Assembly (NCBI GenBank): GCA_003599135.1
Contig: QZIV01000011.1
Span: forward strand, 1-46,236
Source: Candidatus Parcubacteria bacterium
Lineage (GTDB): Bacteria; Patescibacteriota; Minisyncoccia; UBA6257; 2-01-FULL-56-20
Reading direction: 5' to 3'
DNA: 46,236 bases
The notes beneath the pieces are model-generated. The model saw only the letters and a program-made list of their open reading frames with translations, searched no databases and was not told the origin of the DNA. The position numbers and the translations under genes were made by a program. This document shows, piece after piece, positions 6,295 to 39,351 of this stretch. Position 1 is the first letter of the stretch. Each line of letters starts with the position of its first letter.

Positions 6295-6333
6295 AGCTAA
6301 AAGCCCCTGCCGGGCGGCAGGGGCTTTTAGCTT
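6294..6333. terminator. Bidirectional intrinsic terminator
   Basis: Perfect 18-bp stem AAGCTAAAAGCCCCTGCC / GGCAGGGGCTTTTAGCTT with 4-nt loop. Confidence 0.88.
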
Positions 6334-6679: not shown

Positions 6680-6694
6680 TCAGCGGGGCCGTAA

Positions 6695-6837
6695 AACTAA
6701 AATTCGAGGCCGAGACGGACTCCTAGAGACCCTGTCTCGGCCCCATTTATCGGCAGGAAAGGCCAAAGGACGCCAGTGCAGAACATTCTAAGCGCCAACT
6801 TAGGAAGGAACCGCGCCTGTTCGCCCCTTAGCCTTAA
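6695..6837 (-). ncRNA. Candidate antisense small RNA of about 140 nt
   Basis: Downstream of a leftward consensus promoter; no obvious ORF; ends in GGCCGAGAC...GTCTCGGCC hairpin followed by a U-rich tract on the minus strand. Confidence 0.5.
6781..6798 (+). repeat. 18-bp direct repeat, copy 2 (GAACATTCTAAGCGCCAA)
   Basis: 17/18 identical to 6436-6453; lies inside the predicted antisense RNA. Confidence 0.8.
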
Positions 6838-6842
6838 CCTAT

Positions 6843-6871
6843 AGTATAACATCCCGATGTTATTTTGTCAA
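6843..6871 (-). promoter_or_regulatory. Leftward sigma70 promoter with palindromic operator
   Basis: Minus strand TTGACA (6871-6866), 17 bp, TATACT (6848-6843); ATAACATC-CC-GATGTTAT palindrome (6846-6863) covers the spacer. Confidence 0.8.
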
Positions 6872-6899
6872 GCGATGTCAAGGGAAAGGTGGCGAGCAA

Positions 6900-24097: not shown

Positions 24098-24589
24098 ATG
24101 CCAGGCAGAAAACCGATTCCAACAAACATGAAGCTACTCAAAGGCAATCCCGGCAAGCGCGCTCTGAATGAGAACGAGCCGAAACCGGAAATTGAGATCC
24201 CGGACCCGCCGCGCTTTCTAACAGGGTATGCGCTGGAAGAGTGGCATGAGATCACGCCGATTCTCTATAGGCTCGGGCTCGTCTCAAAGCCAGATCGGGC
24301 CGCCCTTGCCGCATATTGTCAGGCGTTTCAGCGATGGGCGGAAGCGGAAGAGCAGCTTACCGGCCTTGACGGCCGCCAGAATTTGCTTACTCAGGACACG
24401 TCCGGCAATATCCGCAAATCGCCGCTCGTGAATATCGCTCATGAGGCGATGGATCAAATGCGCCGATTTTTGGTCGAATTCGGCATGACCCCGAGCTCCC
24501 GGGCAAAGGCTGTTGCCCGAAAGCCGAATGAAAACAAAAGCCCGTGGGATAAATTCAAGACGGCTGACACGAGAAAGAAAAAGAAATAA
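24098..24589 (+). CDS. terS: Terminase small subunit, P27 family
   Basis: MPGRKPIPTNMKLLKGNPGKR, ALAAYCQA, EFGMTPSSR. Confidence 0.93.
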   Translation: MPGRKPIPTNMKLLKGNPGKRALNENEPKPEIEIPDPPRFLTGYALEEWHEITPILYRLGLVSKPDRAALAAYCQAFQRWAEAEEQLTGLDGRQNLLTQDTSGNIRKSPLVNIAHEAMDQMRRFLVEFGMTPSSRAKAVARKPNENKSPWDKFKTADTRKKKK

Positions 24590-26253
24590 TGTCACTTTCC
24601 TATGCCGCTCGCGCTAACAAATACGCCCGCGAAGTCCTATCCGGCAAAATCCCGGCCTGCATTTATGTCCGGCAGGCTTGCCAGCGCCACCTTGACGATC
24701 TCGCACAGTCAAAAGACAAATCCTATCCGTACTATTTCGACACTGGCACCGCAGACCGTATTTGCTCATTCGCTGAAAACATGGTTCACGTCAAGGGCAA
24801 ATGGGCGCTTGAATCTATCCGGCTTGAAGCATGGCAGATTTTCCTATTCGCCGTTGCGTTCGGTTGGCTCAGACATACCGACAACATGCGCCGATTCCGG
24901 GAAATCTATTGGGAAATTCCGCGCAAGAACGGTAAATCGCTTATGGGGGCAATTATCGGGCTTTACATGGCATTTGCCGATACCGAGGCGGCTGCAGAAG
25001 TATTTTCCGGCGCTACTTCCGAAAAACAGGCGTGGAAAGTGTTCTGGCAGGCCCGCCAAATGTGCCTGAAGTCAGAGGAATTCCGGGAACATTTCGGCAT
25101 CTATGTTGGCGCGAAAAACCTTTGTTGCCTTGATGACGGCTCGAAATTTGAGCCGATCATCGGCGACCCCGGCGACGGCGATTCCCCGCATTGCGCGATT
25201 ATAGACGAGTACCACGAGCATAAGAAATCGAATCTTTACGACACGATGAAAACCGGCATGGGTGCCCGTACTCAACCTATGCGCGTGGTTATCACAACCG
25301 CCGGAATGGACACGTCCACGCCCTGTTATGCAAAGCATGACGATTCAATCAAGATCCTCGCGGGCGTCCTGCAGGATGACGAAACATTCCCCTGCATTTT
25401 CACAATTGACCCTGACGATGACTGGACCTTACTCGAAAACTGGAAAAAGGCTAACCCAAATTATGGCGTATCCGTTTTTGAGGACTTCCTGGAAGCCCGC
25501 CGGCAAGAGGCGATGGTCAAAACCGGCGAGCAGAATGAACTCAAATGCAAGCACCTGAATGTATGGAGCAGCGCGGGCGTCGCATGGATCAACATTCTGC
25601 AATGGCGAAAAAACATAATTCCCATGACACTCGAAGAACTCAAAGGCCAGCCCTGTATTGCCGCCCTCGATCTCGCGTCAAAAATTGACCTCGTTGCGCT
25701 TGTTTTCATGTTCAAATTCCCCGAATATTACTACTTTTTCGGGCGATACTATCTCCCGGAAAATACCGTCGATCTCCCGGCTAACAGGCATTACCAAAAA
25801 TGGCGCGATGAAGGCCATTTGATTGTCACGCCCGGCGCTCGCACGGATTTTCACTACGTCAAAGACGATCTTCTAGAGCACAATAAGACTTTCCCGATAA
25901 AAGAACTGGCGTATGATCCCCACGAGGCCGCGATGCTCATTCAGGAAATCGAAGAGGAGGCGTCTTTCCCCTGTATCGAAGTCATGCAATCGGCGGCGCA
26001 AATCTCCGAGCCGATGAAAGAACTGGAGGCCCTTTACATGGCCGGGAACCTTCATCATGACGGAAACCCGATTCTCAATTGGACCGCGTCTAATGTTGTG
26101 CTCAAATCTACCCGGACAAAGCTATTTTATCCGGCTAAAGAGCGCCCGGAAAACAAGATCGACCCGATTGTCGCCGCGATCATGGCGCTAAAACGGGCGA
26201 TGATTGCCGCTCCAACATCCGTCTACGAAGAAAGGGGGATTTTATTTGTATGA
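24589..26253 (+). CDS. terL: Terminase large subunit
   Basis: EIPRKNGKS Walker A, IIDEYHEH Walker B, ITTAG, WKKANPN, ALDLASKID, KIDPIVA. Confidence 0.96.
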   Translation: MSLSYAARANKYAREVLSGKIPACIYVRQACQRHLDDLAQSKDKSYPYYFDTGTADRICSFAENMVHVKGKWALESIRLEAWQIFLFAVAFGWLRHTDNMRRFREIYWEIPRKNGKSLMGAIIGLYMAFADTEAAAEVFSGATSEKQAWKVFWQARQMCLKSEEFREHFGIYVGAKNLCCLDDGSKFEPIIGDPGDGDSPHCAIIDEYHEHKKSNLYDTMKTGMGARTQPMRVVITTAGMDTSTPCYAKHDDSIKILAGVLQDDETFPCIFTIDPDDDWTLLENWKKANPNYGVSVFEDFLEARRQEAMVKTGEQNELKCKHLNVWSSAGVAWINILQWRKNIIPMTLEELKGQPCIAALDLASKIDLVALVFMFKFPEYYYFFGRYYLPENTVDLPANRHYQKWRDEGHLIVTPGARTDFHYVKDDLLEHNKTFPIKELAYDPHEAAMLIQEIEEEASFPCIEVMQSAAQISEPMKELEALYMAGNLHHDGNPILNWTASNVVLKSTRTKLFYPAKERPENKIDPIVAAIMALKRAMIAAPTSVYEERGILFV

Positions 26254-26726
26254 AAGAAGTTGTTGAAATTAGGCTAAAAAGGCGCTATGGAAAAGTGCTG
26301 AAAACCATAAGCACTGAAATACCCCTTAATCAAATGACAGCCTGCAATGACATTGGAGAAATGGTTGCATATTTAATGCGAAGCACTGGCGAATTCGTCA
26401 ATGATAACGCGGCGCTGACCCCCAACCTCAAGAGAGAAACACTATCCCGCCGCGATAGAACAGACGAAATAGCCGCGCTAAAGGCGATGCCCTACAGTGA
26501 ATATTTAACAACTAAGCATTGGAAGTCAATCGCTAGAAGGGCAAGGCTGCGAGCAAAGCATAAATGCCAGCTATGCAATAACACCGGAGAGAGCCATGTC
26601 CACCATCGGCATTATAAGACAATAGGCGAGGAAAGTATAATTAACGACTTGATTGTTTTATGCGCTGACTGCCATGCAAAATTTCATGGGACGGGTTTAC
26701 CGGAGGATTCCCCCAGTGACCGCTGA
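26250..26726 (+). CDS. HNH endonuclease
   Basis: YSEYLTTKHWK, CQLC, HVHHRHY, LIVLCADCHAKFH. Confidence 0.8.
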   Translation: MKEVVEIRLKRRYGKVLKTISTEIPLNQMTACNDIGEMVAYLMRSTGEFVNDNAALTPNLKRETLSRRDRTDEIAALKAMPYSEYLTTKHWKSIARRARLRAKHKCQLCNNTGESHVHHRHYKTIGEESIINDLIVLCADCHAKFHGTGLPEDSPSDR

Positions 26727-26883
26727 CACCACCGCCCAAACCTATCACATCACCAAATGCCCCGGATGCGGCGGTAAAGCGCCGGTAACGCGGACAATGC
26801 CGAAAGAAGATGAAAACGAAATCCGAATCAGGTATCATAAGTGCTCGATCTGCGGAAGGCGGTTTAAGACAACGGAGGGATGA
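26716..26883 (+). CDS. Zn-ribbon protein (Ogr/Delta- or NrdR-N-like), candidate late-gene regulator
   Basis: GGAGG RBS, GTG 26716; CPGCG...VTRT...IRYHKCSICGRRFKTTE. Confidence 0.7.
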   Translation: MTADTTAQTYHITKCPGCGGKAPVTRTMPKEDENEIRIRYHKCSICGRRFKTTEG

Positions 26884-27035
26884 AAATGCAATACGGAATA
26901 GACTTCTACACCACAGATTGCCCGCTCTGCTAGACCTCTTTTCTAGATTCTAGAAACGACCACCCCAAAATCTATTGACTTACCCGCCGTTTAGTGCTTA
27001 GATAACACCGTACATGGTTTCCGCTCCTTTGTTAT

Positions 27036-27084
27036 AAGGCCGTTCGGGAGGCCCGAAACTTCCGGACGGCCTTTCGGTTTTTTT
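27036..27084 (+). terminator. Terminator with embedded alternative hairpin (element 1, before portal)
   Basis: AAGGCCGTTCGGGAG / CTTCCGGACGGCCTT stem plus U-tract; loop CCCGAA can instead pair with TTCGGG of the 5' arm. Confidence 0.7.
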
Positions 27085-27252
27085 GGAGAGAGATTTGGGA
27101 ATAGGACCGCGAGAGGTAATATTCACGCTTGGTTTTCTCACCCTTGCCGCCGGTCTTGCCGGTTATGACTGGCGTATTTCCGCCTCTGTAATGGGGGCGA
27201 TTTTGCTGTTATTGTCCATAATTCCCGCGATTTTACCGAAAAAGCGTAAAAA

Positions 27253-28974
27253 ATGAGCCTATTATTGCGCCTTTTACAGCCCGATTCCTTCGAGGCCCGC
27301 GCTTCCGCAGACGATGATTTTTGGTATACCCACGCGCCTTCGGGTCCGACAAAGACCGGCCTCGATATTGACGAAACGAATGTCATTCAAATCGCTACGG
27401 TTTGGGCGTGCGTGCGAGTGATTGCCGAAACAATAGCCTCTTTGCCCCGTTTCGTATATGAACGGCTCGAAAAAGGCAAGAAAAAAGCCATAAATCACCC
27501 GCTTTACAACCTGATCCACCTGCAACCGAACCCCGAATCTAGCGGGATGCAGTTCCATGAGACAATGCTCCATCATTTGCTATTGTGGGGAAACTTTTAC
27601 GCCGAAAAGCAAATCAATCAGCGAAATGAACTCATTGCGCTCTGGCCGTGGAATCCGGCGCAAACAAGCGTGGAAAGAGATAGAGAAACCAGTCAATTGA
27701 TGTATACTCTACAACTTGGCAACGGGAAAGACCCCCGAAAACTGCCCCGCGAGCGTATGTTCCATATCGCCGGACTCTCATTTAACGGCGTAACCGGGCT
27801 TTCGCCAATCGCCAATGAGCGGGAAACATTCGGCCTCGCAATGGCTACCCAGGAATTCGGGTCGCGATTTTTCGGCAACTTCGCAAAGCCCGGCGGGGTC
27901 ATGGAACACCCCGGGCAAATAACCGATGAAGTCTATAAGCGCCTGCAGGCGTCATGGCAAGAAGGACACGCAGGACTACATAACGCTCATAAGCTGGCAA
28001 TTCTCGAAGAGGGCATGACGTTCAAGCCTATCACGATGCCGCTTGAGGACGCTCAATTTCTCGAAACGCGGAAATTTCAGCAAAATCAAATTGCCGCGAT
28101 CTTCCGGGTCCCGCCTCATATGATCGGCGATCTCGAACGCGCAACATGGGGAAATATCGAATTTCAGAGCCTTGATTTTGTTGTGCATTGTATTCGCCCG
28201 TGGCTTGTGCGGATTGAGCAGGCGTGGTTACTGCAATTATTCAAGCCCGAAGAGCGCCGCCGCTTTTTTGCAGAGCATGTTGTCGATGGACTCTTGCGGG
28301 GCGATTTCAAAAGCCGGATGGAAGGCTACGCGATTGGCAAAAACAACGGGTTTATGTCTTCAAATGACATTCGCGAGCTCGAAAATATGAACCCGATCCC
28401 GGAGGAGCAGGGCGGCAATACGTATCTCATACCCGCCAACATGCTGCCGGCGGAGCGGGCGCTCAATCCAGAGCCGGAGCCGCAGGAGACGATGCCAGAG
28501 CCGGAAGAGCAGCCCCAGCGCCGCGAGCGCATGAGAAGCGCGTTTACGCGATGGTTTGCCGATGCAACCGCAAGGATTGTCCGGCGCGAATCAGCCGCGA
28601 TCGGCAACCAGGCGAAAAAATTCATGGGGATTTATGCGCTTGAGGACTTCGAGGCATGGCTCGATAGCTTCTATGGCGATCTGCCGGCATTCATCGGCCT
28701 GCAGTTAGAGCCGGTCGTTTCATCCTACTGCGATACGGCGGATCTTAATGGGCAGGCAGGGACGTTTTGCGCGGCATTCCTGGAGGATTTCTCGGGGCGC
28801 CACATTTCGGAGAGCAAGAACCTTATCCTTGCGACGGCAAAACAGGCGGATCGGAGCGTTAGATTCGCTGCAATAGAAAATATGGTTAACGAATGGACTG
28901 AGGGCCGGGCCGAACACATAGCAGAGCGCGAGATTGATTATATGGCGGCTCTCATACAGGAAAATATGATCTAA
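27253..28974 (+). CDS. Portal protein, HK97 family, with C-terminal extension
   Basis: VWACVRVIAETIASLP, PNP, LLLWGNFY, GLSPI, AQFLETRK, IAAIFRVPPHMIG, NDIRELENMNP. Confidence 0.96.
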   Translation: MSLLLRLLQPDSFEARASADDDFWYTHAPSGPTKTGLDIDETNVIQIATVWACVRVIAETIASLPRFVYERLEKGKKKAINHPLYNLIHLQPNPESSGMQFHETMLHHLLLWGNFYAEKQINQRNELIALWPWNPAQTSVERDRETSQLMYTLQLGNGKDPRKLPRERMFHIAGLSFNGVTGLSPIANERETFGLAMATQEFGSRFFGNFAKPGGVMEHPGQITDEVYKRLQASWQEGHAGLHNAHKLAILEEGMTFKPITMPLEDAQFLETRKFQQNQIAAIFRVPPHMIGDLERATWGNIEFQSLDFVVHCIRPWLVRIEQAWLLQLFKPEERRRFFAEHVVDGLLRGDFKSRMEGYAIGKNNGFMSSNDIRELENMNPIPEEQGGNTYLIPANMLPAERALNPEPEPQETMPEPEEQPQRRERMRSAFTRWFADATARIVRRESAAIGNQAKKFMGIYALEDFEAWLDSFYGDLPAFIGLQLEPVVSSYCDTADLNGQAGTFCAAFLEDFSGRHISESKNLILATAKQADRSVRFAAIENMVNEWTEGRAEHIAEREIDYMAALIQENMI

Positions 28975-28985
28975 ATTTTTCATAT

Positions 28986-29083
28986 CGGGCTTATCAAGGG
29001 CCGATCACCCGCGATAACGCAAGAAAAGAAGGCGGCAGTTCCGGTGCCGGAACCATCGGGATTACCGCCTTTTCTTTTGCCCG
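28986..29083 (+). promoter_or_regulatory. Structured RNA element 2 (attenuator-like) before the prohead protease
   Basis: CGGGC/GCCCG closing stem, TTATC/GATAA stem, long AAGGCGG...CCGCCTT terminator stem whose loop CCGGAAC complements GTTCCGG. Confidence 0.65.
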
Positions 29084-29099
29084 AATGAAAGGACTGGAA

Positions 29100-29891
29100 A
29101 TGAAAAAAGACAAGGCGGAGCTTAAAGGCTACTCGATCACGGCAAAGGCGAAAGAAGCCGAAGTCTGGATTTATGAGGAAATCGGCGAGTATTGGGGCAT
29201 GGGCCTTTCGTCAAAGCAATTCGCAAAGGACTTGAAAGACCTCGGGGATGTAAGCAAGATCACCGTTCATCTCAATTCGCCTGGCGGAGACCCGTTCGAA
29301 GGCGCGGCTATTTATAACACGCTCCGGAGTCACAAGGCAGAAGTCATTGTGAATATCGACGGCCTTGCCGCTTCCGCCGCCTCGATCATTGCAATGGCCG
29401 GCAATGAAATCAATATCGCCGAAAACGGCATGTTCATGATCCACGAGGCCGCCGGGATGACGTTTGGCCGCGCCGAAGATCATGAGCATATGGCTGAAGC
29501 CCTCCGCAAGATCAATGGCTCAATGATGAGCACCTATCTCAAACGGGCGAAGATCGATCAAGAAAAAATTGCCGAACTCATGGCCGCCGAAACGTGGATG
29601 AACGCAGACGAGGCGGTTGCGTACGGCTTTGCAGATCAAATCAGTGAGCCGCTTGAAATGGCGGCCAGCTTTGATCTCTCGAAATTCAAATACCGGAACG
29701 CGCCCGCGCTAAGCATGAGCGCGGAAGATATCCCCTCACGGCCAAAGCCGGAGGAAGGGGCGCCGGAATCGGCCAAAGTCGATAACCCGCCGCCTGCGGA
29801 GCCCGTCAGGGCAACGCTCCACGACGTGACCTTGTATGAAAACGACAGACAGAAGAGGCTCGCACACTTGCGACGCCCGAAAGGAAAGTAA
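29100..29891 (+). CDS. Prohead maturation protease, ClpP (S14) type
   Basis: HLNSPGG, IDGLAASAASIIAMAG, FMIHEA, ETWMNADEAVAYGFAD. Confidence 0.93.
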   Translation: MKKDKAELKGYSITAKAKEAEVWIYEEIGEYWGMGLSSKQFAKDLKDLGDVSKITVHLNSPGGDPFEGAAIYNTLRSHKAEVIVNIDGLAASAASIIAMAGNEINIAENGMFMIHEAAGMTFGRAEDHEHMAEALRKINGSMMSTYLKRAKIDQEKIAELMAAETWMNADEAVAYGFADQISEPLEMAASFDLSKFKYRNAPALSMSAEDIPSRPKPEEGAPESAKVDNPPPAEPVRATLHDVTLYENDRQKRLAHLRRPKGK

Positions 29892-31237
29892 TGCTCACGA
29901 TCACGCAGATGCGCGAGAAGGCCGCCGCTCTGCTCGATGAGGATGCCGGCATTAGAGCGGCAGCCGTGAATCAGAAACGGCAACTCACCGGGCAGGAGCA
30001 GGACCGGATCACGCAGATTTACAACGAAGTCGAAGAGCTTGAAGCATCGATCAAGCTCGAAGAAAAAGGGGAGGCAATCCGCGCCCGATTCAATCAGTCC
30101 GTTGACGAACCGGCGCGGCCCGATCCGACCGACGATGGAAACGGCAGTTACCGCGCTCCCGGCGCGGCCAATCGCCCGAAACCCCGCAAGGGTGACGGCT
30201 TCCGCACGCTCGGAGAATTTCTCACAAAGGTAGCGATTGCACAATCACCCGGCGGACTCACAGACCCGCGGCTTATTCAGGCCGCCGCAACCGGCATGAG
30301 CGAGGGCGTATTCTCTGACGGCGGGTTTGCAGTCGGAACGGATATCGCCGGTACGATCATGGACAAGATTTTCGGGGCCGAAAACCTTGCTTCCCGTTGC
30401 ACCCGCTTCACCATCAGCAACACGTCAAATTCAATCAAAGTGCCTCGCATTGTTGAATCATCTCGCGCTGACGGCTCGCGCTGGGGCGGAGTGCGCGGGT
30501 ACTGGAAAGACGAGGCCGCGGCAATGACCGCCAGCAAACCCAAGGGCGGCGATTGTCAGTTGAGCCTCGAAAACCTGACGGTATTGATTTACACGACGGA
30601 CCAGCTCCTTGCCGATTCCGCCGCGCTCGAATCGTATATCCGCCAGCTCGCGCCGAAAGAGATCATCTTCAAAATGAACGATGCTCTCATTAACGGCGAC
30701 GGCTCCGGCAAACCTCTGGGCATCCTTCAGGCCGGTTGCCTCGTATCGCAGGCAAAGGAAACCGGACAGACGGCGGAAACGATCAAGTACGAGAATATTG
30801 TCAAAATGTGGTCCCGCATGTTCTCTGATTCGCGCCCGAATGCCGTATGGCTTATCAATCAGGACGTGGAGCCGCAACTCTACACGATGTCCCTTGCGGT
30901 CGGTACGGGCGGCAGCGCGGTTTATCTGCCCCCGGGCGGCGCGTCAGATCAACCGTATGCGCGGCTCTTCGGCCGGCCGGTAATTCCGATGGAGCAATGT
31001 CCTACGCTGGGAACGGTTGGCGATATCATCCTGGCCGATTTCAGTCAATACCTGTTGGCTGATAAAGGCGGAGTGGAAAGCGCCTCCTCGATCCATGTCC
31101 AGTTCCTTTACAACGAAACCGTTTTCCGGTTCGTCTACCGCGTGGATGGCCAGCCGTGGTGGGGCGCTCCATTGACCCCCAAAAGCGGATCATCCAATAC
31201 CCTGAGCCCCTTTGTGGCGCTCGCAACCAGGTCTTAA
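29891..31237 (+). CDS. Major capsid protein, HK97 fold with N-terminal delta domain
   Basis: N-terminal coiled coil, DGGFAV, LINGDGSGKPLGIL, LFGRPVI, GDIILADFSQY. Confidence 0.95.
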   Translation: MLTITQMREKAAALLDEDAGIRAAAVNQKRQLTGQEQDRITQIYNEVEELEASIKLEEKGEAIRARFNQSVDEPARPDPTDDGNGSYRAPGAANRPKPRKGDGFRTLGEFLTKVAIAQSPGGLTDPRLIQAAATGMSEGVFSDGGFAVGTDIAGTIMDKIFGAENLASRCTRFTISNTSNSIKVPRIVESSRADGSRWGGVRGYWKDEAAAMTASKPKGGDCQLSLENLTVLIYTTDQLLADSAALESYIRQLAPKEIIFKMNDALINGDGSGKPLGILQAGCLVSQAKETGQTAETIKYENIVKMWSRMFSDSRPNAVWLINQDVEPQLYTMSLAVGTGGSAVYLPPGGASDQPYARLFGRPVIPMEQCPTLGTVGDIILADFSQYLLADKGGVESASSIHVQFLYNETVFRFVYRVDGQPWWGAPLTPKSGSSNTLSPFVALATRS

Positions 31238-31253
31238 GGGGAGGTGACAGCTA

Positions 31254-31736
31254 ATGGCTAGAGGAATCAATATTGCCGAACAATGCCACGTTGTGAATGC
31301 CACGGCTCCTATCGATATCAATGGCGCGGGCGCGTCTTCAGACGTTTTTTCAATGGAGAACTTCTCCCACGCTACGATCATCGTTCAGCTTGGCGTCACC
31401 GGCGCGGCTACCACGATCACAGTCAAGGAGTGCGATGACGTTACGCCGACGAATTCAACGGCTATCGCGTTCTACTACTACTCTGAAACCACGGCGGCGG
31501 GAGATACGCTTTCGACTCGCACGGCCGCCACGACTTCGGGAATCACCGGCTCAACCAACGATGGTGTCATGTACGTCATCGAAATCGACGCATCGCAGCT
31601 TACCGATGGGTACAAGTACCTGCAGGTATGCGCAAGCGATCCGTCAGCCGCAACGCTTTATTCCTGTGTTGCGATTCTGAGCGGCTCGCGCTATTCCGGC
31701 GATCCGGCAACTGAGGCAATAACGGCGATCGTGTAA
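31254..31736 (+). CDS. Putative capsid accessory or decoration protein
   Basis: GGGAGGTG RBS; beta-rich, Thr/Ala-rich; immediately after the capsid gene. Confidence 0.6.
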   Translation: MARGINIAEQCHVVNATAPIDINGAGASSDVFSMENFSHATIIVQLGVTGAATTITVKECDDVTPTNSTAIAFYYYSETTAAGDTLSTRTAATTSGITGSTNDGVMYVIEIDASQLTDGYKYLQVCASDPSAATLYSCVAILSGSRYSGDPATEAITAIV

Positions 31737-31757
31737 CTGAGACAATAACCAACTATC

Positions 31758-31786
31758 CGCCCGGCCTCCAGTGACGAGGCCGGGCG
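31758..31786 (+). other. GC-rich hairpin without U-tract (processing or stabilising element)
   Basis: CGCCCGGCCTC-7 nt-GAGGCCGGGCG perfect 11-bp stem. Confidence 0.55.
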
Positions 31787-31818
31787 CCCTACGGGGCGGA
31801 TAGAAGGAGAAAGAAAAA

Positions 31819-32523
31819 ATGGCAGACGTACACAGCAAATGGATTAATGGGCAGCTCGTCTTTTGGGACACCTACGAATACAGGTGGGTTGATGCAATCG
31901 GCCCGGATGTCGTCAAGTATTGCAACCACTTCGTCAATTTGCCGGTAGACGATACGACCGGCAATCCGACGGAATTCACGACAACGGAAACGGGAGTGAA
32001 TACGGTCGTTATTAGCACGACGGCGGGCGGACGGCTCCTGCTTACCACCGGCGCCACGGAAAACAACGGCATCAGTATGCAATTGACGGGCGAAGCGTTC
32101 AAGCTCGAATCGAACAAGCCGCTGTATTTCGGAACGAAATTGCAGGTGAACGATGCCGACCAGGTTGACTTATTTATCGGCCTCTGCATAACCGACACCG
32201 ATTTGGCGGGCGGCATGACCGACGGAGTCTATTTTGAATCGCTTGACGAAAGCGCGAGCATCTCATGCGTGACCGAAAAGGATTCAACCGAAACGCAGAC
32301 CGATTCCACCGGAACGCTTGTCGATGCCACTGACAAGACGCTCGAATTCTACTGGGACGGCAGCACATACATTCATTTCTACATCGACGGAACGCTTGTG
32401 GCGTCAAGTTCCACAAACATTCCAACCGATGAAGAGCTTACGCTCTCGATCGAATTGCTGACCGGCGAGGGTACGGCAAACACCTGCTCAATCGATTGGG
32501 TCCGCGTCATTCAGATCCGGTAA
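31819..32523 (+). CDS. Putative virion protein with beta-sandwich (lectin-like) domain
   Basis: Acidic, Thr-rich; TLEFYWDG..IHFYIDG and IDWVRVIQ segments; in the head module. Confidence 0.55.
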   Translation: MADVHSKWINGQLVFWDTYEYRWVDAIGPDVVKYCNHFVNLPVDDTTGNPTEFTTTETGVNTVVISTTAGGRLLLTTGATENNGISMQLTGEAFKLESNKPLYFGTKLQVNDADQVDLFIGLCITDTDLAGGMTDGVYFESLDESASISCVTEKDSTETQTDSTGTLVDATDKTLEFYWDGSTYIHFYIDGTLVASSSTNIPTDEELTLSIELLTGEGTANTCSIDWVRVIQIR

Positions 32524-32533
32524 GGGGGTTGCA

Positions 32534-32950
32534 ATGAGAAGATACCTGATTGCGCTAGTGCTCGTGCTTCTCTTTGCAGGGGCGGCATGGGCAACGAGCC
32601 TCAACTTTTCGAGCAGCCCGAACCTGACGGGGCTTACTTACTGGGTTGAGCGTGATAACGTCGGCGATGCCTCAACCGCGCAAACGATCAAAGCCGCTCC
32701 TGGCGCGGGCTACAGGCTGACGGTAACGCGGGTAATAATCAGTTGCGTAACCGCATGTGCCATTTACTTGAAAGACGAAGACGGCACGGTAATAGCCGGC
32801 GGTTACGAATTCACTACGGGCGGCCCGGGAACAATAGACCTCAATTTCTACCGATACCCGCGATATTTGGCCGACAACAAGGCGCTGACGTATGAGGCAA
32901 CCGCAGAGGGAAACGTGACGGTTGAGGTTGAGGGGTTCACAAGCAACTAA
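32534..32950 (+). CDS. Head-module protein with Sec signal peptide
   Basis: MRRYLIALVLVLLFAGAAWA then TSLNF; beta-rich mature domain. Confidence 0.7.
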   Translation: MRRYLIALVLVLLFAGAAWATSLNFSSSPNLTGLTYWVERDNVGDASTAQTIKAAPGAGYRLTVTRVIISCVTACAIYLKDEDGTVIAGGYEFTTGGPGTIDLNFYRYPRYLADNKALTYEATAEGNVTVEVEGFTSN

Positions 32951-32974
32951 CGGGCGATGACTGAAAGGGGCGAT

Positions 32975-33142
32975 ATGAGCGAGTTGAAAATGGTGCAGGT
33001 GAGGTTGAAGCCGCATTATCTTCCTCACCTGCATTCTCGTATTGTGGAAATGTATGAGGGACCGGCAAGGCAACTTGCAGATAGCGGATTGCTCGAGATC
33101 CTGCCGGTAGAGAAAAAGCGCGGGCGCAAACCAAAGGCTTAG
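32975..33142 (+). CDS. Small basic protein preceding the head-tail connector
   Basis: ARQLADSGLLE...KKRGRKPKA, a common small gene at this position. Confidence 0.55.
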   Translation: MSELKMVQVRLKPHYLPHLHSRIVEMYEGPARQLADSGLLEILPVEKKRGRKPKA

Positions 33143-33145
33143 GCG

Positions 33146-34051
33146 ATGTCGATAAGCTCTCCGAATCGGATAATCACAGCTACCGATTTCAAGAACATTA
33201 TGCGCGTTGGCGATACCTCGCAGGATACGATTCTTGGGCGCGTTCTCCCGGGGGCGCTCCGGGCGCTCGAAAGATACTGTAACCGCAAATTCTGCGAGTA
33301 CGAAGAGGAGGCGTTTTCGGTTTATTGCAACGATACCGGCAGCGTTTCAGCGGCAACAGTCACCGTTACGGAATCCACGCTTACCCTTGTCAATACCGGC
33401 GGGGATAATGCGGGAACAAATACGCTCACCCTTGCCGATGCCGCCAATGACACGCTGACAGAACTTGTTGCCGTCATAGAGGCACTGGACGGCTGGACCG
33501 CAACGATATCTTCATCGGCAACGGGGACGGCATCGAGCACAGAACTAACTCCGGCGGCCGCTCAATCCTGCATCGGCTCTGCAAATGCCGTCACATTGGG
33601 CTATCGCGTGGACATAACGGAGTACTTTGACGGGGACGGCAAAACGCGGCTCTGGCCGCAGTATATCCCGCTCATTTCCGTCACTTCGCTTTACGATGAC
33701 ACAGACCGGACTTTTACGGATTCGAATGACGCGCTTGACGATGACGATTATGCGCTTTTTGACGATTACCTTCAGCTGGTCGATAACAACACTTTCAATG
33801 TCGACACAAAAAACATTCGCTTGATCTATCGCGGCGGCTACACGCCCGCACAGCTTGACGATGACGAGCGATCAGATTTGAGGCTGGCGGCGGCTCAGTA
33901 CGTGAATTACATCATGCAGCAGATATCAACCGGGCCCGTCCAGGCGCAGGTTGACATTGACGGCATGGTTCAAAGGCCGCTATTTTTCGGCCCAATTCCC
34001 GCGATGGTTCGGGCGCTCCTGGAGCCCTACAAACGCAAGGTATTTTTCTAA
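33146..34051 (+). CDS. Head-tail connector (gp6/gp15-like) with inserted domain
   Basis: ALERYCNRKF, EYFDGDG, PLISVTSL, NIRLIYRGGY, IPAMVRALLEPYKR. Confidence 0.75.
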   Translation: MSISSPNRIITATDFKNIMRVGDTSQDTILGRVLPGALRALERYCNRKFCEYEEEAFSVYCNDTGSVSAATVTVTESTLTLVNTGGDNAGTNTLTLADAANDTLTELVAVIEALDGWTATISSSATGTASSTELTPAAAQSCIGSANAVTLGYRVDITEYFDGDGKTRLWPQYIPLISVTSLYDDTDRTFTDSNDALDDDDYALFDDYLQLVDNNTFNVDTKNIRLIYRGGYTPAQLDDDERSDLRLAAAQYVNYIMQQISTGPVQAQVDIDGMVQRPLFFGPIPAMVRALLEPYKRKVFF

Positions 34052-34614
34052 TGGGTGACTACAAATTCGAGGTCGATACGTCCCAGGCTGAAGCTCTTGG
34101 CCGGCGCATTGAACAGGCCGCTAAAGATGGTTTCTCTGATGCTCAAATTACAAAAGCCCTCAGACAAGGGGCCCGCGTGATACGGGATAAGGCGCGAGCT
34201 ACGGCTCCGGTACGGAAAACGGGCAAGTCCATTAAGGGCAAGGGACGCCCCGGGGTGCTCAAAAGATCGATCAAGGACGTAACCCTTAAAAAGCGCCAGG
34301 GTAGACCACCGGCGGCAAAAGCGGCTGGCGTTGCTCCTCATGCTCATTTGGTGGAACTCGGGACGGGGCCGCGATTCCGGGGAATCAAAAAGCATTTCGT
34401 TGGCGGGAGGACAGAGCGGGGAATAAAGCGATACGGACCGCGTCATTTCTTTTGGGAAGGCACCGGCAACAAATTCGGCTATACCGGCTCGATGCCGCCT
34501 AATCCCTTTTTCAAGCATGCCGTTGACGCTGGTATGGCGGCGGCCAATCAGGCTATAGACCAGGGCATTGACAAAATGCGCGATGCGTTTGACCGGAAGG
34601 TACGCGGAAGTTGA
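34051..34614 (+). CDS. HK97 gp10-like tail completion protein
   Basis: ALRQGARVIRDKARATAPV, LKRSI, AHLVELGT, MPPNPFFKHAVD. Confidence 0.85.
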   Translation: MGDYKFEVDTSQAEALGRRIEQAAKDGFSDAQITKALRQGARVIRDKARATAPVRKTGKSIKGKGRPGVLKRSIKDVTLKKRQGRPPAAKAAGVAPHAHLVELGTGPRFRGIKKHFVGGRTERGIKRYGPRHFFWEGTGNKFGYTGSMPPNPFFKHAVDAGMAAANQAIDQGIDKMRDAFDRKVRGS

Positions 34615-35129
34615 GCATTGATATTTCCAGCCTTGAAGACGCCGTTAAGGTGGTTTATGCCGCCGATTCATGGTTCTCGGAGTCCGCAAACTGCGTTACT
34701 ATCGAGGCCCGATTCCGGCGCGTTTCGCAGGACTATAACCGCGCCTTTTATGGATTCGAGCCAACAAGCGAATTACCCGCCGTTATCATTGTGGCGGCAA
34801 TTCAGCGCAACGGATTCGAGGGTAAGGTCCGGCGCGAACATACCACGACCGGCGAATACGATTACTTTATTCCAATGGCGATTCTGTGCATCTTGCAAAA
34901 GGCCGATTATGACGATTGCGAAAGCGCGATTATCACGATGATCGAAAAGGCCACCGACGTTGCAGAGGAGCAAATTCATTCCGGCGCCGATTGGGGAACG
35001 GGTGACGGCATAACCGTACCCGACAGCATTGAGGACTCATATAACGTGATTCCGCACGGGGCAACGCATATCGGAGTTGGCATTGTGAAATTCGACATTC
35101 AAAAGATTGGGGATATCGGGGGAATATAA
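34611..35129 (+). CDS. Putative tail terminator protein
   Basis: Position between gp10-like and tail tube genes; ELPAVII segment. Confidence 0.55.
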   Translation: MSIDISSLEDAVKVVYAADSWFSESANCVTIEARFRRVSQDYNRAFYGFEPTSELPAVIIVAAIQRNGFEGKVRREHTTTGEYDYFIPMAILCILQKADYDDCESAIITMIEKATDVAEEQIHSGADWGTGDGITVPDSIEDSYNVIPHGATHIGVGIVKFDIQKIGDIGGI

Positions 35130-35138
35130 AATAGCATT

Positions 35139-35239
35139 CAGGGCTTGACCTGAGCCGGACGCGGCAGACGGTCAATGAAAGAAAGAAAGGCGGCTGGTAG
35201 GAGCCTACCCTCCTATTAGCCGCCTTTTTCTTTGCCCTG
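35139..35239 (+). promoter_or_regulatory. Structured RNA element 3 (attenuator-like) before the tail tube genes
   Basis: CAGGGC/GCCCTG closing stem, TTGACC/GGTCAA stem, AAAGGCGGCTGGTAGGAG / CTCCTATTAGCCGCCTTT terminator stem whose loop CCTACC complements GGTAGG. Confidence 0.68.
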
Positions 35240-35260
35240 ACAACGAGGAGGATACGACAG

Positions 35261-36951: not shown

Positions 36952-37244
36952 TCGCGTTCCTGGAGTCAGACTATTTTCGGCGGCTCCAGGAATGCAGGGA
37001 CATGGAGGGCGAGCCATGCGGGGAATGCAAAGACTGTCCGCATTACAAAGAGGCTTTCAGCCGATTCACGCCCGAATATGCGGCTTATGTTTCACGCCTG
37101 CAGCGCGGCATTTTGCGGCTGAAGCTCGCCCCCACGCTGGCCGGCCAATATTCCTTGCGGGAAATCGATCTCATGGCCTTGATGATCGCACACGCCGAAC
37201 AGAAGGCCGCAGAGAAGGCAAAAGAAAATGCCAAGACCAGTTGA
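36942..37244 (+). CDS. -1 frameshift extension of the tail chaperone (gpGT-like)
   Basis: -1 frame from 36948 reads LIAFLESDYFRRLQECRD into ORF 37002-37244; hairpin TTCCTGGAG/CTCCAGGAA at 36957-36992. Confidence 0.8.
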   Translation, partial: KKLIAFLESDYFRRLQECRDMEGEPCGECKDCPHYKEAFSRFTPEYAAYVSRLQRGILRLKLAPTLAGQYSLREIDLMALMIAHAEQKAAEKAKENAKTS

Positions 37245-39351
37245 AATAATCCTGCGTGGAGCATTTGACGACAAGATCACACCCGCATACAAGCGGGCGA
37301 TGAATCAGGTCAAGGCGGAGGCTAAATCTGCTACTGCCGCAATGGGCCAGCTTTTCAATTCCGGCATCGGCCTAATCAAGCGCGGATTTACCAGCCTCTT
37401 GTCCCTCGCAAGGCGCGTATTCTCCGAACTCGTACAGGCCGCGAAATGGGCGGCATTAGGAATTGCCGCGATATCGGTAGCTTTAATCAAGATCGGCTCT
37501 GACGTTACGGAAGCGGAGAACCTTTTTGTCGTTTCAATGGGTGAAATGCGCTCGCAGGCAGAAGCATGGGCGAAAGAATTTTCGCGCACCCTGCGATTGA
37601 ATGTCAATGACGTAAAGAAATTTTTGGGCACGTTCAATGTCATGCTGTCAAGCCTCGGACTCGCCGCAGACGAAGCATATGAGATGTCGAAGGGGCTTGT
37701 CCGGCTCGCCTACGATATTAGCTCATTCTACAATCTGAAGCCCGAGGAGGCATTCCTGAAACTTCAGGCCGGCATCACCGGCGAGGTGGAGCCGTTAAAG
37801 CGCCTGGGAATTGTGCTGAATGAAACGACCGTAAAAGCTTACGCCATGGCGCATGGCATCGGCGAGGCCGGAAAAGAGCTTACGGAAAACCAAAAAATTC
37901 TTGCTCGTTACGGCGCATTGATGGAAGCAACGAAAAAGGCTCAGGGCGATCTTAACCGGACGCTGGGAAGCTCTACGAACATATTCCGCTCGATTTGGGC
38001 GGCGATCCGAGAAGTTGCTCAGCATATCGGCAAGGGGATCGTTGAGAGCAAAGCGTTTCAGGCCGCCGTTAAATGGCTGGGTGATACATTCATTGAATTG
38101 AAAGATAAGATCCTCGGGGTGAATATCTCCGAAACGATAGACCGCTGGACCGACAGCATCCGCCGCTTTTTCACTGAAACATTGAATGTGGGGGCGCGGC
38201 TGCAGAACATGAAACAGCAGGCGCTCGATCTGCTCAGAAGTATTCCTATTGGCGGAACGATCACGGAAACCAAAGTGCATTCCACCGGATTCGGAACGGA
38301 AAAGACCACCACGACCCGGGCCCGGACGCTGGCGGATATCGGCGGTATTCGAGAGGCGCTAAAGGCGCTCGGAGTTGACGCCAAACAATTCATTGCCGAT
38401 GCGTTCACGTGGATCGAGCAGAAGATTCTCGCGGCGTTTGCATATATCAAATCCGGCGAGGCTAAAAGAGACTTCGAAGGCTTAAAGAGAAGCTGGGCGG
38501 CCTTCAGGGAAGATGTTGCTGTAATCGCTGGCGTACTTCGGCCAACGTACACAATATTAAAAAACCTTGCCGGCCTCGCCTTTGACTTTGCTAAAGCACA
38601 CCCGGATATCGCCGCCCTTGGCGCCGCCTTTATTCTGCTCGGACCGCCAATTGCCAGAATAGTAGGGCCGCTCGCCACTATCGCATCGTTCCTGTTTACC
38701 ATCGGGAGCGGAGTAATCCCCGTGATTATCTCCGGCATAGGCGCGGTTGTGGGTGTTCTTGGTGGACCGCTGACGCTTGCGATCATCGGCGTTGTTGCCG
38801 CAATCACCTCGATTTACCTCAATTGGGAAAACATCTGGAAAATGTTTCGTGACGGTTGGTGGGCAATCCGGGATGCCGCGATCGAAACATGGGAAATGAT
38901 CAAGGAAGCATTCACATTTGATGCCTTGACGCTGGCGCTTAATGGTTTTATCGACGGCGCGAAGGCAACATGGCAGGATTTTTCCACCTGGTTCAAATCC
39001 CTCTGGAACGAAACCATAAGCGCGGGTATCGATAAGGTCAAGGAATTCTTCGGGGTTGCGCGTCCTCAGCATAAAGAAAGCCCGTCCATGATCGAGAATT
39101 GGGCGGCTGGTATTGGACAGATTGAAGCCACGTTTGCGAGCGCGATGTCAAACATGATGGCGCAGTCGCAAGTATTAACGGCTCAGTCGAGGCCAAATTA
39201 TCAAACGTCGTATTCCACGGTCATTAATGGCGGCATCAATGTTTCTCTTCCGCCTTCGAATGACCCCGAAACACTGTCAGATGAATTTGTCCGCAGGCTC
39301 CAACACAAGATGAACCGGCGCTCTCGCGTTGGCTGGGACCCGATCTCATGA
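37228..39351 (+). CDS. Tail tape measure protein
   Basis: 707 aa, helical and Ala-rich; LAYDISSFYN, GITGEVEPLKRLGIVL, AQGDLNRT; Trp-periodic C-terminal region. Confidence 0.92.
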   Translation: MPRPVEIILRGAFDDKITPAYKRAMNQVKAEAKSATAAMGQLFNSGIGLIKRGFTSLLSLARRVFSELVQAAKWAALGIAAISVALIKIGSDVTEAENLFVVSMGEMRSQAEAWAKEFSRTLRLNVNDVKKFLGTFNVMLSSLGLAADEAYEMSKGLVRLAYDISSFYNLKPEEAFLKLQAGITGEVEPLKRLGIVLNETTVKAYAMAHGIGEAGKELTENQKILARYGALMEATKKAQGDLNRTLGSSTNIFRSIWAAIREVAQHIGKGIVESKAFQAAVKWLGDTFIELKDKILGVNISETIDRWTDSIRRFFTETLNVGARLQNMKQQALDLLRSIPIGGTITETKVHSTGFGTEKTTTTRARTLADIGGIREALKALGVDAKQFIADAFTWIEQKILAAFAYIKSGEAKRDFEGLKRSWAAFREDVAVIAGVLRPTYTILKNLAGLAFDFAKAHPDIAALGAAFILLGPPIARIVGPLATIASFLFTIGSGVIPVIISGIGAVVGVLGGPLTLAIIGVVAAITSIYLNWENIWKMFRDGWWAIRDAAIETWEMIKEAFTFDALTLALNGFIDGAKATWQDFSTWFKSLWNETISAGIDKVKEFFGVARPQHKESPSMIENWAAGIGQIEATFASAMSNMMAQSQVLTAQSRPNYQTSYSTVINGGINVSLPPSNDPETLSDEFVRRLQHKMNRRSRVGWDPIS

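What the first reader, a model, noticed from the sequence alone, without database searches (positions are those of the whole stretch)
27036..35239. Three late-operon RNA elements sharing a terminator versus alternative-hairpin architecture
Seen: before the portal (27036-27084), protease/capsid (28986-29083) and tail tube (35139-35239) blocks sits a long terminator-like stem whose loop is the reverse complement of part of its own 5' arm: TTCGGG/CCCGAA, GTTCCGG/CCGGAAC and GGTAGG/CCTACC. Each can therefore form two mutually exclusive folds. Copies 2 and 3 also share a closing stem (CGGGC/GCCCG versus CAGGGC/GCCCTG), a first stem (TTATC/GATAA versus TTGACC/GGTCAA), an A-rich linker and an AAGGCGGC stem start: different sequence, same pairing. 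The antisense-RNA hairpin shows a similar inner pairing (GAGAC-AGG-GTCTC, minus strand). Inference: a family of attenuators or antitermination sites staging late gene expression, possibly bound by a phage protein.
Basis: partly seen in the sequence, partly recalled or inferred. Interest (0 to 1): 0.78.

Follow-up and report, generated by a model that had tools for sequence, protein, structure and literature searches.

The report
New phage leader RNA with terminator
Two of the three flagged hairpins belong to a previously uncatalogued folded RNA, shared by many unrelated uncultured phages, that wraps a terminator-like hairpin inside a three-armed structure just before the genes for the most abundant virion proteins.

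Summary
All quoted motifs sit at the stated coordinates.

Copies 2 (28985-29084) and 3 (35138-35240) are homologous. They belong to a phage RNA family of at least 62 distinct members with no Rfam 15 match.

The fold is a three-way junction:
- P1 is a clamp whose 3' strand lies after the U-tract.
- P2 is a hairpin.
- A conserved purine-rich linker follows.
- P3 is a 16-25-pair terminator-like stem.

Covariation supports this fold.

Copy 1 shares only the hairpin design (11.1 bits, E 1.1).

The alternative fold leaves the terminator base intact and is about 9 kcal/mol less stable, so it is not a classical antiterminator.

No protein is shared by all six element-bearing genomes, which argues against a dedicated phage protein partner.

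The element always precedes a same-strand gene. Every one of the 19 of 29 downstream genes that could be annotated was a virion or packaging gene.

My reading of its function is inferred, not shown. I take it to be a leaky or conditional terminator whose read-through transcript refolds into a compact protective leader.

The parts
28985..29084 (+). Copy 2: full family member, sited between the portal stop (28974) and the protease start (29100). P1 28985-28990 / 29079-29084. P2 28991-29017, with loop CCGATCA at 29001-29007. Linker CGCAAG 29018-29023. A-tract and P3 run 29022-29078.
   Evidence: Covariance model R1 gives 78.9 bits, E 3e-17, over the full model 1-123. The MFE fold shows the three-way junction at -49.8 kcal/mol, z = -4.7.
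29038..29063 (+). Copy 2 tip triple. S is GTTCCGG (29038-29044). S' is CCGGAAC (29047-29053): it is the loop in the long fold and the 3' arm of the short hairpin. S'' is CATCGGGATT (29054-29063), the wobble-rich 3' arm of the long fold.
   Evidence: Read directly from the sequence. There are 7 Watson-Crick pairs between loop and arm.
35138..35240 (+). Copy 3: full family member, sited between the 172-aa neck-region ORF stop (35129) and the 66-aa ORF (35261) that precedes the 356-aa putative major tail gene. P1 35138-35144 / 35234-35240. P2 35145-35175, with loop GACG. P3b 35187-35194 / 35219-35226. U-tract 35225-35233.
   Evidence: R1 gives 92.8 bits, E 1e-20. The fold is -61.9 kcal/mol, z = -7.3.
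35197..35219 (+). Copy 3 tip triple. S is GGTAGG (35197-35202), S' is CCTACC (35205-35210), and S'' is CTCCTATTA(G) (35211-35219).
   Evidence: Read directly from the sequence. There are 6 Watson-Crick pairs between loop and arm.
27036..27084 (+). Copy 1: a stand-alone terminator-like hairpin with the same S / S' / S'' design (TTCGGG / CCCGAA / TTCCGGA) and a similar basal stem (AAGGCCG / CGGCCTT). It has no P2, no linker and no GGG/CCC clamp, so it is not a full family member.
   Evidence: R1 matches only model positions 62-105, at 11.1 bits, E 1.1. The terminator scan lists it with 15 pairs. It has a 6-pair loop/arm complement.
26940..27010 (+). Possible regulated promoter feeding copy 1: near-palindrome TTTCTAGATTCTAGAAA (26940-26956), then TTGACT (26975-26980), with TGCTTAGAT about 17 nt downstream.
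   Evidence: Read from the sequence only. The promoter scan did not list it because it lacks A at position 2 of the -10 hexamer. This part is inference.
6706..6744 (-). Minus-strand terminator-like hairpin with its own triple: GAGAC, GTCTC in the loop, and GTCTC again in the 3' arm. It lies downstream of a TTGACA...TATACT promoter-like site at about 6880-6845.
   Evidence: -26.3 kcal/mol. It is not homologous to the family (no R1 match).

Best explanation
**Shown**
- Copies 2 and 3 are members of a widespread, uncatalogued cis-acting RNA family of uncultured tailed phages.
- The family is an element of about 100-105 nt (modelled with flanks as 123 positions) lying in the sense strand of late mRNA, between a stop codon and the next ribosome-binding site.
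- It folds as a three-way junction:
  - P1 is a clamp with a GGG/CCC core and covarying outer pairs.
  - P2 is a hairpin whose loop is usually NGAUCA or NGGCCA.
  - The junction is a conserved strand, ACGCAAG.
  - P3 is a long arm. An A-tract pairs with a U-tract, then comes a conserved AAGGCGGC/GCCGCCUU helix, then a variable 9-10 bp helix S/S''. The loop S' is the reverse complement of S.

**Inferred mechanism**
1. P3 plus its U-tract is a genuine host-RNAP intrinsic terminator. It punctuates the late operon directly in front of high-copy virion genes and is read through partly or conditionally.
2. The P1 3' strand lies after the U-tract, so P1 can only form in read-through transcripts.
3. 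In those transcripts P1 and the A-tract/U-tract helix close the junction and bury the AU-rich single strands. This leaves a compact, nuclease-resistant leader abutting the ribosome-binding site of the downstream gene.
4. The short S/S' hairpin forms first during transcription. It is then replaced by the more stable S/S'' helix. It probably tunes how fast or how completely the terminator hairpin forms.

The element works with host factors or on its own, not with a dedicated phage protein. Copy 1 is a separate leader terminator built on the same hairpin design.
For: **Family and structure**
- A motif scan returned 39 viral loci, and a second scan that did not force P3 returned 84.
- The covariance model confirms 65 hits, 62 of them distinct.
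- In the main fold 90.3% of cells are paired, 29 of 39 pairs change on both sides, and 0 of 500 shuffles reach this. Versions slid by 1-3 columns give 42-51% paired.
- P1 outer pairs covary: AU 24 / CG 22 at one column pair, and CG 16 / UA 13 / UG 11 at another.

**Terminator features**
- The hairpin is GC-rich and followed by UUUUUCUUU.
- The A/U orientation of the flanking helix is kept in 47-58 of 62 members rather than flipped.

**Sense-strand RNA**
- U-G pairs are frequent in P1 and P2, for example UG in 50 of 62 at columns 20/157.

**Alternative hairpin**
- 88.7% of cells are paired, with a covariation score of 0.71 against 0.05-0.12 when slid, and 0 of 500 shuffles reach it.
- 55 of 62 members have at least 5 Watson-Crick pairs between loop and arm.
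- Its partner is S itself: no S-like copy is enriched within about 90 nt of the flanks.

**Leader position**
- In 29 of the 31 loci examined, a same-strand ORF was found that starts within 15 nt before to about 110 nt after the model match end, which includes about 5 flank nt beyond P1; two loci (L136, L103) yielded none.
- 19 of 29 downstream ORFs have PHROG hits, and all 19 are virion or packaging genes: 10 major tail, 3 major head, 3 adaptor, 1 protease, 1 minor tail, 1 large terminase.
- Upstream genes vary. They include portal, protease, terminase, scaffold and glycosyltransferase-like proteins, and 16 of 28 have no hit.

**No phage partner**
- No protein cluster is shared by all six genomes.

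**Precedent**
- More than 60% of the termination sites of phage LUZ7 allow substantial downstream extension (average termination efficiency below 50%), and ten terminators changed read-through by at least 30% during infection (PMC9163698, passages read).
Against: - No transcript data exist. No sequencing run was listed, so termination, read-through, processing and stability are all unmeasured.
- A terminator directly upstream of the most abundant virion genes is counter-intuitive unless read-through is high or antiterminated. No antiterminator or sigma factor was recognised in the window.
- The stabiliser idea does not explain three things: the strong sequence conservation of the AAGGCGGC helix, the conserved ACGCAAG junction, and the P2 loop.
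- Both tip states keep the basal stem, so an effect of S' on termination is conjecture.
- S/S' is almost free of G-U pairs, about 10 of roughly 330 paired cells. S/S'' has G-U in 5-45% of cells depending on the column. A DNA-level constraint could also produce that pattern.
- Most members were found with sequence patterns taken from the family itself, so the conservation of the forced motifs is overstated.
Confidence: 0.45

Rival explanations
1. The element is an RNA processing signal. The long P3 helix would be a host RNase III (or other endonuclease) site in the polycistronic late mRNA. Cleavage would separate low-copy from high-copy cistrons and leave protective hairpins on the products. 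On this reading the resemblance to a terminator is secondary.
For: - P3 is a nearly continuous helix of 16-25 predicted pairs whose length is tightly conserved. The forced-motif span is 51-52 nt in most members.
- The element is intercistronic and can occur more than once per genome.
- It is independent of phage proteins.
- Recalled precedent, not checked in any call: the repeated RNase III sites of T7 and the conserved processing sites of SP82.
- For PMC6938266, on T7 transcript degradation, I saw only the search listing and the start of the abstract.
Against: - This does not explain why the 3' flank is kept U-rich and the 5' flank A-rich rather than being free to covary.
- It does not explain the P1 clamp, P2 or the conserved junction strand.
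- No cleavage data exist.
Confidence: 0.15
2. The element is a factor-sensing attenuator. The junction, P2 loop and P3b helix would form a binding pocket for a host protein or small molecule. Binding would shift the S/S' versus S/S'' balance or stabilise P3, and so set termination.
For: - Nucleotides that are unpaired or not needed for pairing are conserved: the ACGCAAG junction, the NGAUCA/NGGCCA loop and the AAGGCGGC helix. This holds in members found without forcing them.
- Two mutually exclusive tip pairings are both conserved.
- The element sits in a leader position.
Against: - The alternative hairpin does not free or sequester the stem next to the U-tract.
- It is about 9 kcal/mol less stable than the long fold.
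- No upstream antiterminator segment exists.
- The P1 3' strand is transcribed only after the termination decision.
- No shared phage protein was found.
- No Rfam riboswitch resemblance was found.
Confidence: 0.15
3. The element is a mobile or selfish intergenic cassette, MITE- or REP-like or comparable to the promoter/stem-loop cassettes of T4-type phages. It would spread between unrelated phages by recombination, with P1 acting as terminal inverted repeats, and would be tolerated because it behaves as a harmless terminator.
For: - The RNA sequence is far better conserved than the surrounding proteins. The window shares only terminase, portal, capsid, a 160-aa ORF after the capsid gene and one small ORF (27-45% identity) with one of the five other genomes, plus scattered single, mostly non-structural matches to the rest.
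- Some genomes carry two copies.
- The tips of both hairpins are palindromic through their centres, as template-switch correction of quasi-palindromes would produce. That mechanism is recalled, not checked.
Against: - Orientation is strictly the sense strand, and the element always sits just before a virion gene start.
- There are abundant compensatory changes and strand-specific U-G pairs.
- No target-site duplication was noticed in the flanks, and no associated transposase was looked for or seen.
- Ordinary terminators in the same genomes lack the design.
Confidence: 0.08
4. The element is an RNA-RNA pairing module. The self-complementary P2 loop (GAUC, GGCC, AAUU) and the self-complementary P3 tip would mediate kissing or duplex formation between two copies of the element, linking late mRNAs.
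For: - 47 of 62 P2 loops contain a self-complementary tetramer, against a shuffle mean of 28.5 and a maximum of 44 in 1000 shuffles.
- GAUC, GGCC and AAUU differ by changes that preserve self-complementarity.
- The S-NN-S' tip is a 14-nt near-palindrome in 55 of 62 members.
Against: - About 9 members have a GACG tetraloop and 4 have GGCA instead.
- In this window the two copies have non-complementary P2 loops, CCGAUCA versus GACG.
- The sequences are related, so the shuffle test overstates significance.
- No test of dimerisation was possible.
Confidence: 0.07

Closest known systems
Leaky or time-dependent intrinsic terminators inside phage operons (Pseudomonas phage LUZ7 mapped by ONT-cappable-seq, PMC9163698; T7 as cited there)
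   Same: Both are GC-rich hairpin plus U-tract elements inside co-directional phage operons, with genes continuing downstream. Read-through of such sites is documented as a way to balance expression (passages read).
   Different: Those terminators are simple hairpins and are not a conserved family. Here the terminator is embedded in a covarying three-way junction whose closing helix lies beyond the U-tract. It also carries a conserved second 3' arm in its loop, and it recurs in unrelated phages.
Lambdoid late leader (late promoter, short terminated RNA, terminator read through by Q) and the HK022 put RNAs; recalled knowledge, also named as comparators in earlier scan notes on other DNA
   Same: Both are structured RNA plus a terminator placed in front of virion genes. 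A cis-acting RNA of two adjacent stem-loops could act on RNA polymerase.
   Different: Copies 2 and 3 are intercistronic, not promoter-proximal. No Q-like or N-like protein was recognised. The hairpin itself carries the U-tract. Only copy 1 has a possible promoter just upstream, and that is read from sequence only.
RNase III processing signals of T7 and SP82 polycistronic mRNAs (recalled)
   Same: Both are repeated, conserved long hairpins in intercistronic spacers of phage operons that depend on a host enzyme. The helix is about two turns long.
   Different: The T7 and SP82 sites are not three-way junctions with a U-tract and a downstream clamp. Cleavage has not been tested here.
Obligatory non-native hairpin intermediates in co-transcriptional folding of E. 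coli SRP RNA (10.1101/379222 and 10.1101/378745; search listing and start of abstracts only)
   Same: In both, a short 5' hairpin forms first and is later replaced by a long, more stable hairpin once the 3' strand has been made.
   Different: In this family the early partner lies inside the loop of the final hairpin, and it is kept by covariation across 62 members. Its function is unknown.
Classical attenuators and riboswitch expression platforms
   Same: Both offer two mutually exclusive pairings for one strand of a terminator hairpin, in a leader position.
   Different: The competing partner does not disrupt the stem next to the U-tract. No sensor was identified, and there is no Rfam match.

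Membership tests
The new three-way-junction leader family (model R1, built here) | Full-length match to the covariance model, covering P1, P2, linker and P3 | tested here: met
   Copy 3 scores 92.8 bits and copy 2 scores 78.9 bits, both over model positions 1-123. Both copies were in the seed alignment, so their match is partly by construction. The 33 further hits from the second pattern scan were not in the seed and score 55-114 bits.
The new three-way-junction leader family (model R1), applied to copy 1 | Full-length match to the model | tested here: not met
   Only model positions 62-105 match, at 11.1 bits, E 1.1. Copy 1 has no P2, no linker and no GGG/CCC clamp.
Intrinsic (Rho-independent) terminator | GC-rich hairpin followed immediately by a U-rich tract | tested here: met
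   All three copies meet this. The U-tract is conserved across the family.
Intrinsic (Rho-independent) terminator | RNA 3' ends and transcript release at the U-tract | not testable with these tools
   No sequencing run was listed for this DNA.
Any Rfam 15 family | Match at the gathering score | tested here: not met
   There were 0 matches in the whole window and 0 matches at E<=1 in three family loci. The best sub-threshold hit was ctRNA_p42d at 23.1 bits against a cut-off of 50.
Transcription attenuator / riboswitch expression platform | An alternative pairing that prevents the terminator stem next to the U-tract from forming | tested here: not met
   With S/S' forced, the 8-bp basal helix still forms. 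The mean energy is -16.0 kcal/mol against -24.9 kcal/mol for the long fold.
Transcription attenuator / riboswitch expression platform | An identified sensor (ligand, protein, tRNA or leader peptide) | tested here: inconclusive
   No protein is shared by the six genomes. Conserved unpaired nucleotides exist. No binding test was possible.
RNase III processing site | About 20 bp or more of nearly continuous double helix in an intercistronic spacer | tested here: met
   The P3 arm has 16-25 predicted pairs (one member gave 13).
RNase III processing site | Cleavage by RNase III | not testable with these tools
   No data are available.
put-type cis antitermination RNA | Promoter-proximal position and terminator read-through conferred in cis | not tested
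   Copies 2 and 3 lie between cistrons. No sequence comparison was possible without a reference, and I did not check whether Rfam 15 holds a put model; its whole-library search returned no family at all.

The most novel reading that the evidence does not exclude
The element would be a new type of kinetically programmed terminator-leader. A spare 3' arm kept in the hairpin loop, and kept different from the real arm only by wobble-preserving transitions, would make the terminator's behaviour depend on polymerase speed or state. The post-terminator clamp would then convert read-through RNA into a closed three-way junction with self-complementary loop tips. Such tips could pair late mRNAs with each other. 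Together this would make a portable, protein-independent module that unrelated phages use to set virion protein ratios.
Probability: 0.15. Interest if true: 0.85.

Novelty: new variant of a known kind. Interest (0 to 1): 0.7.

Why it matters
**Significance for phage biology.** How tailed phages that rely on host RNA polymerase achieve very different amounts of neighbouring late proteins is poorly understood outside a few model phages. This is a compact RNA module, conserved in sequence and structure across phages that share almost no proteins, and it sits exactly at the entry to major tail and capsid genes. It is a concrete, testable candidate for such control.

**Significance for RNA biology.**
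- Both the final fold and a less stable competing fold are maintained by covariation.
- A helix closes over a terminator only after read-through.
- If it works without phage proteins, it could serve as a portable expression-tuning part.

**Practical outcome.** The family can be added to RNA family catalogues.

Tried and rejected
- **Protease-gene relatives.** I looked for the element upstream of the protease gene in relatives, using 76 viral and 19 genome loci. None had it there. Only L054 carries a copy, between protease and capsid (36.8 bits).
- **Cultured phages.** blastn of a member against 50,697 phage records gave only 19-nt chance hits. blastn of the portal-capsid region found no close relative.
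- **Own assembly.** There is no further copy in the other 23 contigs.
- **Second pattern in the genome collection.** Of at least 120 matches, the 80 loci listed were scored with the model and 0 of 80 were members. This gave no extra host information.
- **First pattern in the genome collection.** 11 of the 80 loci searched reached E<=1e-4. Seven were strong, coming from bins labelled Verrucomicrobiota (4), Lentisphaerae, Dehalococcoidia and Babeliales.
- **Sequencing runs.** None was listed, and no RNA holder was listed.
- **A trans or flanking target for loop S'.** No enrichment of S-like words was found within about 90 nt on either side, compared with permuted controls.
- **Pseudoknot between the P2 loop and the P3 loop.** I rejected this by inspection, because loop classes do not co-vary.
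- **Promoter inside the element.** No sigma-70-like match was found in the element.
- **Known self-cleaving ribozymes, retron ncRNA, pRNA and tRNA-like RNA.** I considered these and dropped them. There is no Rfam hit and the context is wrong.
- **Earlier scan notes by sequence.** There were none.
- **Literature.** Two searches for a described motif before major tail or capsid genes and two papers searched for terms found no description. Supplementary tables of PMC8040213 and the 2026 preprints were not seen and could list it.

Full report
**Context.** The window is one whole contig with a 99-nt terminal direct repeat, so it is a circularly closed phage genome of about 46.1 kb. It is binned with a 0.70-Mb assembly that earlier scan notes call a Parcubacteria (CPR) bacterium (not checked by me). 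PHROG searches give this gene order:
- small and large terminase (24098-26253)
- an HNH endonuclease (26250-26726)
- a gap containing copy 1
- a 57-aa ORF and the portal (27253-28974)
- copy 2
- head protease (29100-29891) and major head protein (29891-31237)
- neck proteins
- copy 3
- a 66-aa ORF
- a 356-aa ORF with no family hit, which I take as the major tail protein from its position before the chaperone-like ORFs and the tape measure at 37228-39351

**Observation.**
- Folding gives long hairpins followed by T-runs, with z-scores of -3.2, -4.7 and -7.3.
- Copies 2 and 3 fold into the same three-way junction. A closing helix has its 3' strand after the T-run. Then come a first hairpin, an A-rich linker, and a long hairpin starting AAGGCGGC.
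- The 'loop equals reverse complement of the 5' arm' feature is unusual. Only 4 of 74 clean terminator-like hairpins in the whole assembly have at least 5 such pairs, and two of those are copies 2 and 3.
- In five other phage genomes that carry the element, the hairpins outside it have at most 3 such pairs.

**A family, not a local curiosity.**
- A pattern made from the shared letters of copies 2 and 3 found 39 viral-contig loci. Most of these also showed unforced features: GGGTTTCC at the start, a P2 loop CTGATCA or GGCCA, the linker ACGCAAGAAAGA, and the arm/loop/arm triple in many different sequences.
- I built a covariance model from 32 sequences. It scores copy 3 at 92.8 bits and copy 2 at 78.9 bits. 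It matches copy 1 only over the hairpin, at 11.1 bits, E 1.1.
- A second pattern that did not force the P3 helix gave 84 loci, of which 33 were model hits.
- Altogether 65 hits, 62 of them distinct, were aligned.
- Rfam 15 has no match at the gathering score in the window, none at E<=1 in three family loci, and only weak terminator-like hits in the region.
- No cultured phage record holds it at blastn sensitivity.

**Structure and covariation.**
- On the 62 distinct sequences the model fold has 90.3% of cells paired, against 73.0% in shuffles and 42-51% when slid. 29 of 39 pairs change on both sides, and 0 of 500 shuffles reach the observed values. The alignment was fitted to this structure, which favours it. 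Even so, the pair-type diversity in P1, P2 and the variable part of P3 is large.
- U-G pairs are common in P1 and P2, so the pairing is in RNA of the sense strand.
- The helix formed by the A-tract and the U-tract keeps A on the 5' side and U on the 3' side in 47-58 of 62 members. That pattern is expected if the U-tract itself matters.

**The alternative hairpin.**
- I counted six pairs between the distal 5' arm (S) and the loop (S'). 88.7% of cells pair. The covariation score is 0.71 against 0.05-0.12 for slid versions, and 0 of 500 shuffles reach it.
- 55 of 62 members have at least 5 Watson-Crick pairs between loop and arm.
- S/S' is almost free of G-U pairs, whereas the S/S'' helix has G-U in 5-45% of cells depending on the column. 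S'' therefore looks like S' with wobble-preserving transitions.
- With S/S' forced, the basal AAGGCGGC/GCCGCCUU helix still forms. The state is on average 8.9 kcal/mol less stable than the long hairpin (47 of 62 members could be evaluated).
- So the alternative fold is conserved, but it is at most a transient or assisted state, and it does not remove the terminator stem.
- No additional partner for S' was found within about 90 nt of the flanks.

**Context across the family.**
- In 29 of the 31 loci examined, a same-strand ORF was found that starts within 15 nt before to about 110 nt after the model match end, which includes about 5 flank nt beyond P1; two loci yielded none.
- 19 of the 29 downstream ORFs have PHROG hits, all virion or packaging proteins: 10 major tail, 3 major head, 3 head-tail adaptor, 1 protease, 1 minor tail, 1 large terminase.
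- Upstream genes vary: portal, protease, terminase, scaffold and glycosyltransferase-like proteins, with 16 of 28 unannotated.
- The element therefore behaves as a leader of the downstream gene. It was never seen as an operon-end terminator.
- Five other records carrying it have one or two copies each.
- These genomes share very few proteins with the window or with each other. No cluster covers all six, and the widest, tape measure, covers four. The RNA is thus much better conserved than its carriers, and a dedicated phage-encoded partner is unlikely.

**Mechanism.**
- Shown: a conserved sense-strand RNA junction that contains a terminator-type hairpin and U-tract; a clamp helix that can only form after read-through; and a conserved competing tip hairpin.
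- Inferred: the hairpin terminates a fraction of host-RNAP transcripts, or all that are not modified. This would resemble the leaky and time-dependent terminators mapped in phage LUZ7 (PMC9163698, passages read). Read-through RNA would then close P1 and the A/U helix into a compact leader that protects or insulates the message of the abundant downstream protein.
- The early S/S' hairpin may tune terminator folding. A recalled parallel is the non-native early hairpin of SRP RNA (10.1101/379222 and 10.1101/378745, listing and abstract start only).
- Rival readings that remain open: an RNase III-type processing site, a factor-sensing attenuator, a mobile cassette, and RNA-RNA kissing through self-complementary loop tips.

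**Copy 1 and the minus-strand hairpin.**
- Copy 1 shares the three-part hairpin design and a similar basal stem, but it is not a family member.
- It lies about 20-40 nt downstream of a promoter-like TTGACT...TGCTTAGAT preceded by a TCTAGA-rich near-palindrome, read from sequence only.
- It also lies just after a 76-aa ORF with weak, sub-threshold Zn-ribbon matches, including Ogr/Delta (E 0.0022).
- It may therefore be the leader terminator of the portal-to-tail operon.
- The minus-strand hairpin at 6706-6744 has its own GAGAC/GTCTC/GTCTC triple behind a strong promoter-like site.
- This phage therefore uses the design at least four times.

**Limits.**
- No expression data were available.
- Members were collected with patterns derived from the family, so its true breadth and the conservation of the forced motifs are uncertain.
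- Host assignment rests on metagenome bins.
- Supplementary tables of candidate-RNA surveys were not seen.

Noticed in passing
window 1-99 and 46138-46236: The first 99 nt are identical to the last 99 nt. The contig is therefore a circularly closed (or terminally redundant) complete phage genome, binned with a 0.70-Mb assembly that earlier notes call Parcubacteria (CPR). Whether that bacterium is the host is open.
   Followed up: partly
window 6690-6885, minus strand: A near-consensus promoter-like site (TTGACA ... TATACT) drives a non-coding stretch. That stretch ends in a terminator-like hairpin (6744-6706) whose loop holds a second copy of its 3' arm. It is a candidate antisense or regulatory small RNA next to the ParB-like gene region.
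   Followed up: partly
window 6303-6324: A perfect 9-bp GC hairpin with T-runs on both strands, which looks like a bidirectional terminator. It lacks the loop/arm complement.
   Followed up: no
window 26653-27010: A 76-aa ORF with weak Zn-ribbon similarity (NrdR-like E 3e-5; Ogr/Delta E 0.002; all below the Pfam cut-offs). It is followed by the near-palindrome TTTCTAGATTCTAGAAA (26940-26956) and a promoter-like TTGACT (26975). Together these may be a late activator and its target promoter feeding copy 1.
   Followed up: partly
family alignment A3, P2 apical loop (window 29001-29007 in copy 2): P2 loops fall into classes NGAUCA, NGGCCA, UAAUUA, GACG and GGCA. 47 of 62 contain a self-complementary tetramer (shuffle mean 28.5). 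GAUC, GGCC and AAUU differ by changes that keep self-complementarity, which cannot pair within one loop.
   Followed up: partly
G003 (locus L260 and L261): 1557-1670 and 47389-47503 of a 47,850-nt record: This record has two family copies close to its two ends. If the genome is circular they would lie about 2 kb apart, flanking a small gene block.
   Followed up: no
window 4115-5943 and 13106-14050: A PAPS-reductase-like gene lies next to a ParB-like gene. This pairing is often seen in phage DNA-modification or anti-restriction modules. There is also a Cas4-domain exonuclease.
   Followed up: no
L054:2130-2240: This is the only relative found through the protease gene that carries the element. 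It has it between protease and major head genes rather than before the protease, so the insertion point shifts between related head modules.
   Followed up: no
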